A stretch of DNA of 64,000 nt from assembly GCF_009914755.1 (NCBI RefSeq), contig NC_060940.1; one strand, 5' to 3'. Of the stretch, positions 13,135-16,299 are shown in pieces. Under the pieces are notes generated by a model, which was given only the letters and a program-made list of their open reading frames with translations, ran no database searches and was not told where the DNA came from. The stretch comes from the human T2T-CHM13v2.0 reference genome, Homo sapiens. The position numbers were made by a program, and so were the translations under genes. Positions within the stretch are counted from its first letter, which is position 1. Each line of letters begins with the position of its first letter.

Positions 13135-16100
13135 GGCAACGCGGTGGACCTGGGCCAGATGAGCAGCTTCTACATTGGCCTGTGTTCCCGCCTCCACTGC
13201 AACATTTTCTCCTACCACTACTCTGGCTACGGTGCCAGCTCGGGCAGGCCCTCCGAGACGAACCTCTACGCCGACATCAACGCCGCCTGGCAGGCCCTGC
13301 GCACCAGGTGAGGGCGACCCCGGGCGCAGCTCAGCCTGGGCACACCCGAGAGGGGACCAGGCCGGGGGCCAGGGGCCGGGGGGAGGGGCGGGCTTCCCTG
13401 GGAGGAAGGTGGGCGGCCCTGCAGGAGAGGAGCCACAGTGGACGCATGCTGCCAGAGAGCCGGACAGGTGAGCTCAGGCATGCGGGTGCTGCCTCCACAT
13501 GGCTGAGGTGTGGCCAGGAGGTCCCCCCACACCCTGGCCTGTGGAGCCAGGCTCCCTGGGATCCCCTGGCCTGAGGACAGGAAGGGGCTGAGCTTGTCAC
13601 AGGGGCGTGGACACCACCTGGCGGGAGGGGGTGGGTGGTGTCAGGGGGTCTGTGCATGTGTGGCTGGGAGCCCACGGGCTGAGGCCGCACTTGGGGCCAG
13701 GTGAGGCGAGGCTGCTGCATCGAGGTCCCAAGGCCTGGCCCATGAGGCCCCGTGGCTGTGGAGCTCAGCCATCCCGGGGCAGGGCCTGCAGGGTCAGGTG
13801 CAGACCCCCAGCACACACCTGAGGTCTCGGCCAGCTTCGATTCCAGATCCAGCCCTCCTAATCATCCAGGTCCCCAGCCCTGCGCTTGCCTGGGCCCTTC
13901 ACTGGTGTTTGAGCACCACCCGGGCCAGTGCTGCTCTGGACTAGAAGACCCGCGTGGGCCTCTGGGGGCCTTTCCTGCTCACCACCCGCTGGGGCTGTCT
14001 CGTCCTGGCCCTGCCCTGCCCAGCCCAGTGGTCTGACCCGCTCCTGCAGGGGCCAGGCGCAGCTCTGAGAAGTCAGAGGCCCTGGGAGGTGGGGTCCTCG
14101 TTGCCTTGGAGATATCCCAGGCAGTCCCTGCTGTGGGCGTGGGAGCTGGGTCCCCTGGCACCACCCTGGCTCTGGGGGCCTCCCGGCAGTGTGGGGCGCC
14201 GAAACCAAGCACCACTTCATGCAGCTTCCTGGACCCCCTCCTGTCTCTACTGCCCGGGGCACTGGCAGAGTCACACCCCCCATGGCCAGCTCTGAGCTCT
14301 GTCTACTCTGCCGTCTGTCCTGCTGTCGCTTTGTCCTGCAGGATCCTCAGCCCAGAGCCGTGAGGGGGAGGCCAGATAGCGCTCAGGGCCTCTATGGAGG
14401 ATGTGTCTTGTTTGATTGTCTGAGTGGTGACATCTAGGTGGCAGCTGGGGGCTCCTGCCTGGAGCAGGTGACAGGGCTGGGCTGGCTCAGCACACTACTG
14501 GCCTTGGCTGCCAGGGAGCAGGCCAGGGAGGCTGAGGCAGAGCTGCAGCCACAGGCACAAGCCAGGCAGCATCCTTTGGGGCATGGGTGAGCAGTGAGCT
14601 GTGGAGTGCTGCCAGGAGGCTGGGATTCCAGGCCAGGGAGGGAGACAGCCCTGCTGGTGGAGTCCGAATGCCAGCCAGACGGGACGCACACCTGCCCATG
14701 CTCCTGCCTTGCAGGAGGGCATCTGCCTGGCATCAGAGCCTGGAGCTTGTGGGAGGAGAGTTCTGGGGTCTCGGCATCGACAGGGTGGCAGGTGGGTCCC
14801 GCGTGGTTGGGACTGGGCATGAGGAGGCCTTGGGACTGGTGCTGGGTCAGCTGGGCCAGGGGCCGCACACCAGTGACCTGGGAGTGGGGGTGGCCCTGGG
14901 TGGGAGCTGGTGGTGCTGAGGTGGCGGAGGACTTGTCCACTCCCAAGGGAAGGCACTGGTGGGAGGAGATGCTGCCCCCGCAGCCACCACCCTCGATGTT
15001 GACCTGGGTTGGGCTGGCAGCTCATTGGGCATGGGACTCTGAGAGTCCAAAATTGGGTGGAGACATCTGGGGACACAGCTGCCTGAATTCCTCATGGCCA
15101 AGGGGGTAGGCAAGGGCTGCAGGGAGGAAGAGTGTACCCTGTCCCGGCCAGTGCACCAGGAAGAGCTTTCTAACCTGGGCAGGAAGGCGTGAAGCATTCA
15201 GGATGTGGGAGGCCACACAGTTCCCAGTGTGCGCCTAGGGGTGACCAAGAGGAGGAGAGGTGCCAGGGCTTCCCCTACCCTAGCCTGAGGGGGACTCCCT
15301 AGCCAGGATCCAGCAGATCCTGGCTAGGAAACGCCAGTGAACCATAGTGGCAGGGAACAGGACCAGGCCGCCGGCTTCGCCCACCGCTGCGGTGTTGGGG
15401 GGCTTGGGGGTGGCCCTTGAGACTGGTGTGGAGCCTGGGCCTGACCAACTGACTTGGCTGAGCGGGGAGACTGGAGAGTCGCATCCGGAGCTGGGCCCGG
15501 GGACGCCCGCTGGCAGGAGGGGTGCGCGCGCGTTGGAGGCCTAGGCTGACCCTGCTCAGGTGCCGCCAGGTACCGCATCAGCCCGGACGGCATCATCCTG
15601 TACCGGCAGAGCATCGGCACGGTGCCCACCGTGGACCTGGCCTCGCGCTACGAGTCCGCCACGGTGGTGCTGCACTCGCCGCTCACCTTGGACCTGAGCG
15701 TCGCCTTCCGGACACCAAGACCTACTGCTTCGATGCCTTCCCCAAGTGAGCAGGCTGGGGCGGGGACGGGGGCGGGGGCGGAGCGGGGCGGGGCCCGGGC
15801 CGGGCGAGGTCTCACCCGCCCCACGCCCCTCCCGCAGAATCCAGAAGGTGTCCAAGATCACGCCGCCCGTGCTCATCATCCAGGACACGAAAGACGAGGT
15901 GATGGACTTCTCGCACGGGCTGGCGCTCTCCCAGCGCTGCCCCAACGCCGTGGAGCCGCTGTGGGTGGAGGGCGCCGGGCACAAAGACATCCAGCTCTAC
16001 AGCCAGTACCTGGAGCGCCTGCCCGCTTCATCTCCCAGGAGCTGCGCAGCCAGAGCGCCTAGCGGCCGCCAGGGCCCCAACCGGCCGGACCTCAGCAATA

Positions 16101-16299
16101 AGGCAGCCCCCGGACCTCACCCCGCGCCGGCCCCCCCAGGGACTGCATGTGGACCCCCGGGCGGCCCGGGGGACCCCGCCCCAACCCAGGGGCCGTGGAC
16201 GATGTAAAGGCAACAGAGCTACGCACTCCTTTCCTTTTGGAAGCAAGAAGAAAAATCGTGAAAACGGAAATTAAAGATTTAAATTTTTTTTTAAAAAAA
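13135..16299 (+). pseudogene. ABHD17A: ABHD17A (FAM108A) pseudogene: 5'-truncated, last three exons with two introns and 3'UTR
   Basis: Exon 13135-13307: [16 protein letters not shown]...[11 protein letters not shown]. Exon 15570-15745: [27 protein letters not shown]..., with a frameshift. Exon 15838-16062: [14 protein letters not shown]...[31 protein letters not shown], with a frameshift. ATTAAA at 16270 is followed by an A-run at 16293-16299. The GxSxG motif is mutated to RQSIG. Confidence 0.96.

What the first reader, a model, noticed from the sequence alone, without database searches (positions are those of the whole stretch)
13135..16299. ABHD17A copy looks like a retrotransposed unspliced pre-mRNA, not a DNA duplication
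Seen: the copy starts abruptly mid-exon (GGCAAC, 13135) and keeps both downstream introns with GT/AG ends. It stops ~18 nt after the ATTAAA signal in a short A-run, with no obvious flanking DNA from the parent locus. It sits inside an MLT1 LTR at an A-rich point, and the LTR appears to resume right after it. Established: 5' truncation, ending at the cleavage site and A-rich targets are hallmarks of L1 target-primed reverse transcription. Inference: an intron-retaining, polyadenylated transcript was mobilised, so a gene that looks 'unprocessed' may be an RNA-derived copy. No clean TSD is visible.
Basis: partly seen in the sequence, partly recalled or inferred. Interest (0 to 1): 0.8.

Follow-up and report, generated by a model that had tools for sequence, protein, structure and literature searches.

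The report
Intron-keeping retrocopy of ABHD17A
This ABHD17A pseudogene looks like an ordinary DNA duplicate because it still has introns, but it began as a reverse-transcribed copy of an incompletely spliced messenger RNA that landed in a duplicated piece of chromosome 13 and was then multiplied by later DNA duplications.

Summary

**Extent.** Window 13135-16288 matches the chr19 ABHD17A locus and nothing beyond it.
- It starts 22 nt inside exon 3.
- It keeps introns 3 and 4 with GT/AG ends.
- It ends 13 nt after ATTAAA.

**3' end.** Six other independent ABHD17A retrocopies (chr17, chr1 x2, chr22 x2, chr14) end at the same place. All six have clear poly(A) tails, and five have 10-16 nt target-site duplications.

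**Empty site.** The flanks are contiguous at chr13:91,129,5xx, inside a glypican gene. The insert is an internal interruption of a chr13-derived duplicon of at least 33 kb.

1. "Unspliced pre-mRNA" is not shown. The sibling copies that reach introns 1-2 have spliced them out, so "partially spliced" fits better.
2. DNA duplication did follow. The retrocopy and its flanks now stand at 4 chr16 and 2 chr15 sites.
3. There is no target-site duplication, and the short A-run abuts an A-rich target.

**New here.** All 6 of 6 retrocopies long enough to span intron 3 retain it. No fully processed copy was found.

Partially processed retrocopies are a known kind, so this is a new member of it. Interest is moderate.

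The parts
5682..13130 (-). Left part of a chr13 (glypican-gene intron) derived duplicon. Its last bases, ...GGTGCATGAACAA, are the left edge of the insertion site.
   Evidence: window 5682-13130 is collinear and inverted with chr13 91136821-91129505 at 91-93% identity; alignment to the chr13 locus ends at 13130.
13131..13134 (+). 4-nt filler GGAA at the 5' junction. It is found neither in the parent (which has CGCAC before GGCAAT) nor in the chr13 empty site.
   Evidence: The filler is identical in both chr15 copies read base by base; the three other chr16 copies are 99.5-100% identical to the window over 6.4 kb but their junction bases were not read.
13135..13307 (+). ABHD17A exon 3 lacking its first 22 nt. 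It reads [13 protein letters not shown]...ALRTR in frame. The next codon, formed with the retained intron, is TGA.
13308..15569 (+). Retained intron 3, 2262 nt, GT...AG, 65-70% G+C.
   Evidence: It is continuous with the parent at 89.5% identity over the whole 3.15 kb. No Rfam family lies in it.
15570..15745 (+). Exon 4, which in the parent carries the GQSIG nucleophile motif. Here it reads YRQSIG and a frameshift follows.
   Evidence: translations, compared with the chr1 copy L011.
15746..15837 (+). Retained intron 4, 92 nt, a G-rich repeat, GT...AG.
   Evidence: This stretch is excised exactly (CCCTAA|CATCGAG) in the four chr1/chr22 retrocopies.
15838..16292 (+). Last exon. It holds the rest of the coding part (frameshifted; TAG at 16060-16062), the 3' UTR, ATTAAA at 16270-16275, and the end of parent homology at 16288 within the T-run 16284-16292.
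16293..16302 (+). A7 followed by CAC. This is either a poly(A) tail remnant or target A's, and the two cannot be told apart.
   Evidence: The chr15 copies have A6 or A8 followed by the same CACAATG. The empty site reads CAAAAAATG.
16303..16337 (-). Right edge of the insertion site, where chr13-derived sequence resumes (AATGTTTATTAATATACTCC...).
16338..16628 (-). Alu element that pre-dates the insertion. It sits at the same position in the chr13 empty locus.
   Evidence: Rfam SRP-like matches at 16344-16626 on the minus strand; chr13 carries an Alu at the same site, with the TSD TTTGCATAGATTTTTT.
16629..38661 (-). Remainder of the chr13-derived duplicon, including a copied glypican exon at 26620-26748.
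   Evidence: collinear blocks down to chr13 91100074, which is the limit of what I fetched. Pfam Glypican positions 420-464 at C16:33568620-33568748, minus strand.

Best explanation
ABHD17AP7 descends from a single RNA-mediated insertion, later copied as DNA.

Step 1, the template. A polyadenylated ABHD17A transcript that still carried intron 3 (about 2.2 kb) and intron 4 (about 90 nt) served as template.

Step 2, reverse transcription. The transcript was reverse-transcribed from its poly(A) end, most likely by LINE-1 ORF2p through target-primed reverse transcription. Priming would have been at an A-rich site (top strand ...GAACAAC/AAAAAATG...) in a copy of a chr13 glypican-gene intron.

Step 3, the 5' end. 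cDNA synthesis or joining stopped 22 nt into exon 3. The 5' end was joined with a 4-nt filler (GGAA), without a recognisable target-site duplication, and with at most a few bases of target lost.

Step 4, spread. The retrocopy and its flanks were then carried by segmental duplication to four chr16 and two chr15 sites. The copy is dead: it has at least two frameshifts, and the retained intron creates a TGA directly after exon 3.

What is shown: the transcript-defined 3' end, the absence of parental flanking DNA, the empty site, the internal position in the duplicon, and the later DNA spread.

What is inferred: that L1 was the reverse transcriptase, how the 5' end was resolved, and the timing.
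For: (1) Limits of homology. Parent homology covers only window 13135-16288. It stops at the base where the chr17, chr1 (x2), chr22 (x2) and chr14 ABHD17A copies switch to poly(A), at parent positions 12602-12604. The chr14 tail is shorter and interrupted (A7 G A7 G). That makes 7 of 7 independent events sharing the 3' end.

(2) The siblings are canonical L1-type retrocopies. Five of the 6 other events have TSDs of 10-16 nt that start in A-rich sequence: AGAAATCAAGAACACA, CAAAGCGGATTCTTC, GAAAATTTCAGTAA, AAAAAGATTTA, AAAAATTTTG. Their tails run from about 8 to 15 A's. All five full-length siblings carry spliced exon junctions together with a retained intron 3. This proves that intron-retaining ABHD17A RNA is retrotransposed.

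(3) Empty site. On chr13 the two flanks are 5 nt apart.

(4) Position. The insert sits 7.4 kb from one edge and more than 22 kb from the other within one collinear chr13-derived block. It is not at a duplicon junction.

(5) Target. It is A-rich (CAAAAAATG), giving TTTTTT on the bottom strand.

(6) Timing. Non-CpG divergence of insert versus parent is 0.063. For the flanks versus chr13 it is 0.053-0.066. Both exceed chr16 versus chr15 (0.029-0.043). The order that fits is duplication from chr13, then insertion, then spread.

(7) Tree. It is comb-like, with the parent nested among the younger copies (support 100 and 98). That is the shape expected for repeated copying from the parent gene.
Against: - No target-site duplication is present. 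At most 4 nt (ACAA) recur on both sides.
- The A-run is only 7 nt (6-8 in the chr15 copies). It lies where the empty site already has six A's, so it may be target rather than tail.
- The three bases CAC between the A-run and the flank have no clear source. They need either two A>C changes in a former A12 run or a small rearrangement.
- The T-run before the A's is 9 nt against 4 in today's parent, which is unexplained (probably slippage).
- The filler and missing TSD at the 5' junction are the NHEJ-like marks that PMC5110952 (passages read) lists for break-repair 'class 2' insertions.
- L1 involvement is inferred, not shown.
Confidence: 0.87

Rival explanations
1. The insert is RNA-derived but independent of L1 endonuclease. 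A cDNA, or the RNA itself, of the intron-retaining ABHD17A transcript was used as a patch to repair a double-strand break. This would be an endonuclease-independent, 'class 2 templated sequence insertion' type of event.
For: There is no TSD, there is a 4-nt non-templated filler at the 5' junction, and about 1-5 nt of target are lost or altered. PMC5110952 (passages) lists these as class 2 features. The A-run could be the target's own A6.
Against: According to the same paper, class 2 events lack a poly(A) signal/poly(A)-defined 3' end. Here the insert ends at the gene's real cleavage site, the same base as in six tailed siblings. The site is T-rich on the bottom strand, as an L1 nick site would be. 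L1 insertions that are 5'-truncated and lack a TSD are known (recalled, not checked here).
Confidence: 0.08
2. A 3.15-kb piece of chr19 genomic DNA was moved at the DNA level into the chr13-derived duplicon. This would be duplicative transposition, as in the mosaic build-up of pericentromeric duplications, making the copy a true unprocessed pseudogene fragment.
For: The introns are retained with intact GT/AG ends. The region is a hotbed of segmental duplication, with four chr16 and two chr15 copies. There is no TSD.
Against: The 3' breakpoint would have to fall by chance within 2 nt of the poly(A) site used by six independent retrocopies, and be followed by A's that the parent lacks. No parental non-transcribed DNA is present at either end. 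The piece is internal to one collinear chr13 block rather than at a junction between duplicons. No other chr19-derived DNA copy with these ends plus extra flank exists in the assembly.
Confidence: 0.03
3. The chr16/15 copy was copied from another ABHD17A retrocopy acting as a transcribed 'master' copy, not from the chr19 gene.
For: All retrocopies share intron 3 retention, which a single intron-retaining master could explain. Two chr22 copies with different TSDs form a clade with 100% support.
Against: The chr16/15 family is the oldest lineage and sits on its own long branch. It is 91-92% identical to every other copy and to the parent alike, so no surviving copy can be its source. The younger copies form a comb with the parent nested inside. 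Their 5' ends all lie within the parent's exon 1.
Confidence: 0.02

Closest known systems
Partially processed (intron-retaining) retrocopies/retrogenes. Casola & Betran 2017 (PMC5470649, passages read) mention them, citing Soares 1985, Baertsch 2008 and Zhang 2014. Baertsch et al. [quoted passage not shown]
   Same: The insert is an RNA-derived copy that keeps parental introns with their splice sites. Its 3' end is defined by the transcript, it carries no parental flanking DNA, and an empty site exists.
   Different: Within the part copied, both introns are retained, so nothing in the copy itself shows splicing. The RNA origin rests on its ends, the empty site and the sibling copies. It is also 5'-truncated, lacks a TSD, and was later amplified by segmental duplication.
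Canonical L1-mediated processed pseudogenes / class 1 templated sequence insertions (PMC5110952, abstract and passages read).
   Same: There is a poly(A) signal 13 nt before the end, the end is at the cleavage site, the target is A-rich, and the copy is 5'-truncated.
   Different: There is no TSD of 5 bp or more. The A-run is only 7 nt and cannot be separated from target A's. The introns were not removed.
Its own siblings: the ABHD17A retrocopies on chr17, chr1 (x2) and chr22 (x2) in the same assembly.
   Same: Same parent, same 3' end, and the same retained intron 3. The chr17 copy also keeps intron 4.
   Different: The siblings are full length from exon 1, with introns 1-2 spliced out, tails from about 8 to 15 A's and 10-16 nt TSDs. 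They are much younger (97.0-98.8% identical to the parent against 91.3%) and are single-site insertions.
Unprocessed pseudogenes made by segmental duplication, which is how an exon/intron-bearing pseudogene like this one would be read by default.
   Same: Exon-intron structure is preserved, and the copy lies in a pericentromeric duplication block and is multiplied there.
   Different: The founding copy's boundaries are transcript boundaries, and no chr19 flank came along. DNA duplication explains only the later 1-to-6 spread.

Membership tests
L1-mediated retrocopy (target-primed reverse transcription) | The 3' end lies at the parent's polyadenylation site, downstream of a poly(A) signal | tested here: met
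   ATTAAA is at 16270-16275. Homology ends at 16288, which is parent position 12604. Six other independent copies end at 12602-12604.
L1-mediated retrocopy (target-primed reverse transcription) | A non-templated poly(A) tail | tested here: inconclusive
   A7 is present (A6 and A8 in the chr15 copies) and is absent from the parent. However, the empty site has A6 at that point.
L1-mediated retrocopy (target-primed reverse transcription) | Target-site duplication flanking the insert | tested here: not met
   Only ACAA recurs. A GGAA filler sits on the left and CAC on the right. Decay over roughly 6% divergence cannot be excluded.
L1-mediated retrocopy (target-primed reverse transcription) | Insertion at a TTTT/A-like nick site | tested here: inconclusive
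   The empty site reads GAACAAC|AAAAAATG on the top strand, giving TTTTTT/G on the bottom strand. That is T-rich but not the exact consensus, and the chr13 proxy is 6-7% diverged.
L1-mediated retrocopy (target-primed reverse transcription) | Introns removed | tested here: not met
   Introns 3 and 4 are both present. This is why it is filed as partially processed or unprocessed RNA-derived, not as a processed pseudogene.
L1-mediated retrocopy (target-primed reverse transcription) | A simple insertion relative to an empty ancestral site, with no parental flanking DNA | tested here: met
   The chr13 flanks are 5 nt apart. There is no chr19 match outside 13135-16288 apart from Alus.
Partially processed retrocopy | Evidence in the copy of both splicing and intron retention | tested here: inconclusive
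   No spliced junction lies within the truncated copy. In the siblings, splicing of introns 1-2 (5 of 5) and of intron 4 (4 of 6 events) coexists with intron 3 retention (6 of 6).
Class 2 templated sequence insertion / endonuclease-independent insertion | No TSD, with NHEJ marks (filler, microdeletion) at the junctions | tested here: met
Class 2 templated sequence insertion / endonuclease-independent insertion | No poly(A) signal or poly(A)-defined 3' end | tested here: not met
   The insert ends at the genuine cleavage site after ATTAAA. The criterion is taken from PMC5110952.
Unprocessed (DNA-duplicated) pseudogene | Breakpoints unrelated to transcript ends, with parental intergenic or upstream DNA included | tested here: not met
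MLT1 (MaLR) LTR as host of the insertion | Similarity of the flanks to the MLT1 consensus | not testable with these tools
   No repeat library is held. One search found only the 7 orthologous or paralogous places.

The most novel reading that the evidence does not exclude
The intron-3-retaining ABHD17A transcript, not the coding mRNA, may have been the form that L1 copied throughout roughly the last 25-30 million years of primate evolution.

Six of 6 independent retrocopies that span intron 3 keep it, and no fully processed copy exists in a complete human genome. If the events are independent draws, more than about 60% of the ABHD17A RNA available to L1 in the germ line carried this 2.2-kb intron (0.61^6 = 0.05).

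This would mean one of two things. Either the retained-intron isoform dominates the exported germline RNA pool, or the untranslated, GC-rich intron-bearing RNA is preferentially captured by ORF2p. The isoform has a stop codon directly after exon 3. When intron 4 is also kept, it has no downstream exon junction.
Probability: 0.2. Interest if true: 0.55.

Novelty: new member of a known kind. Interest (0 to 1): 0.35.

Why it matters
It is a clean, fully documented case in which a pseudogene with intact exon-intron structure is nevertheless RNA-derived. Pipelines classify pseudogenes as 'processed' or 'unprocessed' by the presence of introns, and retrocopy finders penalise retained introns (PMC2584115, passages). 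Such methods will mislabel cases like this one and so mis-assign the duplication mechanism and age.

The wider ABHD17A picture is seven retroposition events with intron 3 kept in every event that spans it. This gives a natural record of which isoforms reached the L1 machinery in the primate germ line.

The case also separates two layers in a pericentromeric mosaic: one retroposition event, followed by six-fold spread through segmental duplication. It does not bear on any long-standing open question.

Tried and rejected
- The bacterial-type promoter/terminator scan of the 5' junction is irrelevant to a human locus. It gave nothing usable.
- The direct-repeat search with 6-nt seeds across 12900-16700 gave no flanking repeat that could serve as a TSD. 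It returned only Alu-internal and G-rich chance repeats.
- Rfam on 12500-17000 found only the Alu. No small RNA lies in the retained intron that might explain its retention.
- Pfam. The window's own exon pieces are too short or too damaged: 0 families for the exon 3 piece, and one sub-threshold Abhydrolase_4 match for the exon 5 piece. The intact chr1 sibling's C-terminal half reaches Hydrolase_4 above its cut-off (32.9 against 27 bits).
- Testing the MLT1 identity of the flank failed because the genome search does not reach old, diverged repeats.
- Literature. Searches for ABHD17AP / FAM108A / 'ABHD17A pseudogene' (26 papers, 25 listed, one opened) and for ABHD17A plus 'intron retention' (3 papers, one opened) gave nothing on the origin of these pseudogenes. 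One paper lists FAM108A3P/FAM108A1 in a miRNA table. Another lists an alternative-donor event, not intron retention.
- (semi-processed and similar terms) returned mostly food and materials papers. One search (GPC5 and 16p11.2 duplications) returned two cytogenetics papers, which I did not open.
- The idea that all copies share the 13135 start, raised, was rejected. The other copies extend upstream through spliced exons 1-2. The shared start was an artefact of my query.
- The idea that the window's Alu differs from the chr13 Alu was considered and rejected. It is the same site, with a decayed left TSD.
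Full report
**1. What is in the window**

Window 13135-16299 is a 60-72% G+C island in AT-rich surroundings. Searching the window's own assembly with 13000-16400 (40 of 372 first-look candidates scored) found three kinds of match:
- The chr19 parent: C19:1848297-1851413, minus strand, matching window 13135-16288, 89.5% identity including gaps.
- Five further loci that carry the same piece together with its flanks. Three are on chr16 at 99.5-100% identity and two are on chr15 at 93.7%.
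- Copies in unrelated flanks on chr17, chr1 (two), chr22 (two) and chr14.

**2. The ends of the copy**

I rebuilt 20 kb of the chr19 locus from fetched stretches and mapped all copies onto it. The gene has five exons as read from the spliced copies.

5' end. The window's copy begins 22 nt inside exon 3. The parent reads cccag|GTACACGGTCCTCTTCTCGCAC|GGCAAT, and five retrocopies join exon 2 directly to GTACACGG.

Introns. The copy keeps intron 3 (13308-15569, 2262 nt; 2233 nt in the parent) and intron 4 (15746-15837, 92 nt; 82 nt in the parent). Both have GT...AG ends.

3' end. Homology ends at 16288, which is 13 nt after ATTAAA (16270-16275). The parent continues AGGGCTGCTCTCC. The window continues with T's, then A7, then CAC, then the flank. 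Apart from Alu elements, nothing else in window 11500-18000 matches the 20-kb parent region.

**3. The empty site**

Window 11512-13130 and 16303-17578 align to one chr13 stretch, C13:91,129,5xx on the minus strand, with only CAAAA between them. The Alu at 16338-16628 (Rfam SRP-like) sits at the same position on chr13, so it predates the insertion.

At larger scale, window 5682-38661 is collinear and inverted with chr13 91,136,821-91,100,074. The low end of that range is the limit of what I fetched. The ABHD17A piece therefore interrupts one duplicon from the inside. It is not a tile at a junction between duplicons.

A Pfam Glypican search of the assembly places glypican exons on chr13 in ascending model order from 90.65 to 91.11 Mb. 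The last one seen, at 91,110,999-91,111,124, covers model positions 421-464. The site lies 18 kb downstream of that exon. The same exon is copied in the window at 26620-26748 on the minus strand.

**4. The siblings settle the mechanism**

The five full-length copies on chr17, chr1 and chr22 all start in exon 1 and have introns 1 and 2 spliced out. Their 3' ends lie at parent positions 12602-12604, followed by tails from about 8 to 15 A's. They are bracketed by TSDs of 16, 15, 14, 11 and 10 nt. They are textbook L1-type retrocopies.

All five nevertheless retain intron 3.
- The chr17 copy also retains intron 4.
- The four chr1/chr22 copies have intron 4 excised to the base (CCCTAA|CATCGAG).
- A 114-nt 3' fragment on chr14 ends at the same base and is followed by A's.

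The window's copy therefore ends exactly where seven of seven independent events end. Intron-retaining ABHD17A RNA is demonstrably a retrotransposition template.

Two further whole-genome searches were run, one with exons 1-3 of a sibling and one with window exons 4-5. All 15 candidates were scored in each. They found no additional copy and no fully processed one. The sensitivity limit is roughly 75% identity.

The tallies are:
- Intron 3 retained: 6 of 6 events that span it.
- Intron 4 retained: 2 of 6 events.
- Introns 1 and 2 spliced: 5 of 5 events that reach them.

**5. History**

Substitution identity to the parent:

| Copy | Identity to parent |
|---|---|
| Window copy (chr16) | 91.3% |
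| chr15 copies | 92.0% and 91.9% |
| Five young full-length copies | 97.0-98.8% |

An IQ-TREE run (GTR+G, 9 sequences, 3209 columns) gives a comb. The parent is sister to the youngest chr1 copy (support 100). Next comes chr17 (98), then a chr22 pair (100) and the other chr1 copy. The chr16/15 family sits alone on a long branch. That shape fits repeated copying from the chr19 gene over time.

Non-CpG Jukes-Cantor distances:

| Comparison | Distance |
|---|---|
| Insert vs parent | 0.063 |
| Flanks vs chr13 | 0.053-0.066 |
| chr16 vs chr15, flanks | 0.032-0.043 |
| chr16 vs chr15, insert | 0.029 |

The order that fits is duplication out of chr13, then insertion soon after, then spread to chr15 and chr16. 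It is also possible that the insertion was on a chr13 allele since lost. With a recalled neutral rate of about 1.1e-9 per site per year, the founding event falls at roughly 25-30 million years ago. This is an inference, not a measurement.

**6. The junctions and what they leave open**

The left junction reads ...CATGAACAA + GGAA + GGCAAC.... The right junction reads ...T9 + A7 + CAC + AATGTTTATT.... The empty site reads ...CATGAACAA-CAAAA-AATGCTTATT....

There is no TSD; at most ACAA is shared. The A-run abuts what is A6 in the target, so tail and target A's cannot be separated. One economical reading is that AAAAAAACACAA was an A12 run (tail plus target) that took two A>C changes before the family spread. 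Both chr15 copies read base by base share CACAATG. Under this reading the nick lies at AC/AAAAAA and about one base of target was lost.

The missing TSD and the filler are also what PMC5110952 (passages) lists for break-repair 'class 2' insertions. Such events, however, lack a poly(A)-site-defined end. I therefore put L1 target-primed reverse transcription with an atypical 5' resolution first, and break-repair capture of the same RNA second. DNA-level transposition is nearly excluded.

**7. State of the copy**

The exon 3 piece is open (GNAVDLG...ALRTR). The retained intron gives TGA as the next codon, as it would in the parent's intron-retaining RNA. Exon 4 reads YRQSIG where the intact sibling has YGQSIG, and then shifts frame. 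Exon 5 shifts frame again before the TAG at 16060-16062. The intact sibling's C-terminal half matches Pfam Hydrolase_4 above its cut-off.

**8. Comparison with what is known**

Partially processed retrocopies are an acknowledged but rare class.
- PMC5470649 mentions 'partially processed retrogenes', citing Soares 1985, Baertsch 2008 and Zhang 2014 (passages).
- A long-read survey preprint caps retained introns at two and inspects such cases by hand (one passage).

I found nothing in print on the origin of the ABHD17A pseudogenes (only listings and two passages seen). Supplements and retrocopy databases, which I could not see, may list the chr1/chr22 copies.

**9. Verdict**

- It is a new member of a known kind.
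- The more interesting by-product is that every ABHD17A retrocopy able to show it retains intron 3.

Noticed in passing
window 26620-26748 (-): A copied glypican exon (Pfam Glypican positions 420-464, open over 71 aa). It is part of the chr13-derived duplicon and is not in the hub's gene table. The same exon also occurs in the other three chr16 copies and at four chr15 sites.
   Followed up: partly
window 5682-38661: One collinear, inverted chr13-derived block of at least 33 kb. The left boundary near 5682 appears real, because I fetched chr13 up to 91,159,499 and nothing beyond 91,136,821 matched. The right limit is only the limit of what I fetched. About 8 kb of chr13 (91,118,868-91,126,813) has no counterpart between window 18642 and 18958.
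   Followed up: partly
L010 (C22:22.53 Mb) and L012 (C22:21.08 Mb): Two chr22 ABHD17A retrocopies with different TSDs and different flanks form a clade with 100% support, excluding the parent (stem 0.005). The cause could be gene conversion between the two chr22 sites, a lost parental haplotype, or one copy being the template of the other. This was not resolved.
   Followed up: no
L007 (C17:20,790,195-20,793,293): In the chr17 retrocopy, exon 2 is joined 54 nt inside exon 3 (after ...GAGCAG). It is either a cryptic 3' splice site used by the template RNA or a later in-frame deletion. This copy keeps both intron 3 and intron 4, like the window's copy.
   Followed up: partly
L019 (C14:67,255,365-67,255,478): A 114-nt fragment of the ABHD17A 3' UTR ending at the same poly(A) site and followed by A7GA7G. 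It is embedded among several Alus. It is a heavily 5'-truncated retrocopy with no scorable TSD, because the upstream flank is an Alu A-tail.
   Followed up: partly
window 16284-16292, and the chr15 copies: The T-run just before the tail is 8-10 nt in the chr16/15 family. The present parent has 4 T's and the other retrocopies have 2-5. Slippage is the probable cause, but this is unexplained.
   Followed up: no
tree (parent branch): The parent's terminal branch (0.0038) is less than half that of its sister retrocopy (0.0086). This fits slower CpG decay and constraint in the active gene, but it was not tested.
   Followed up: no
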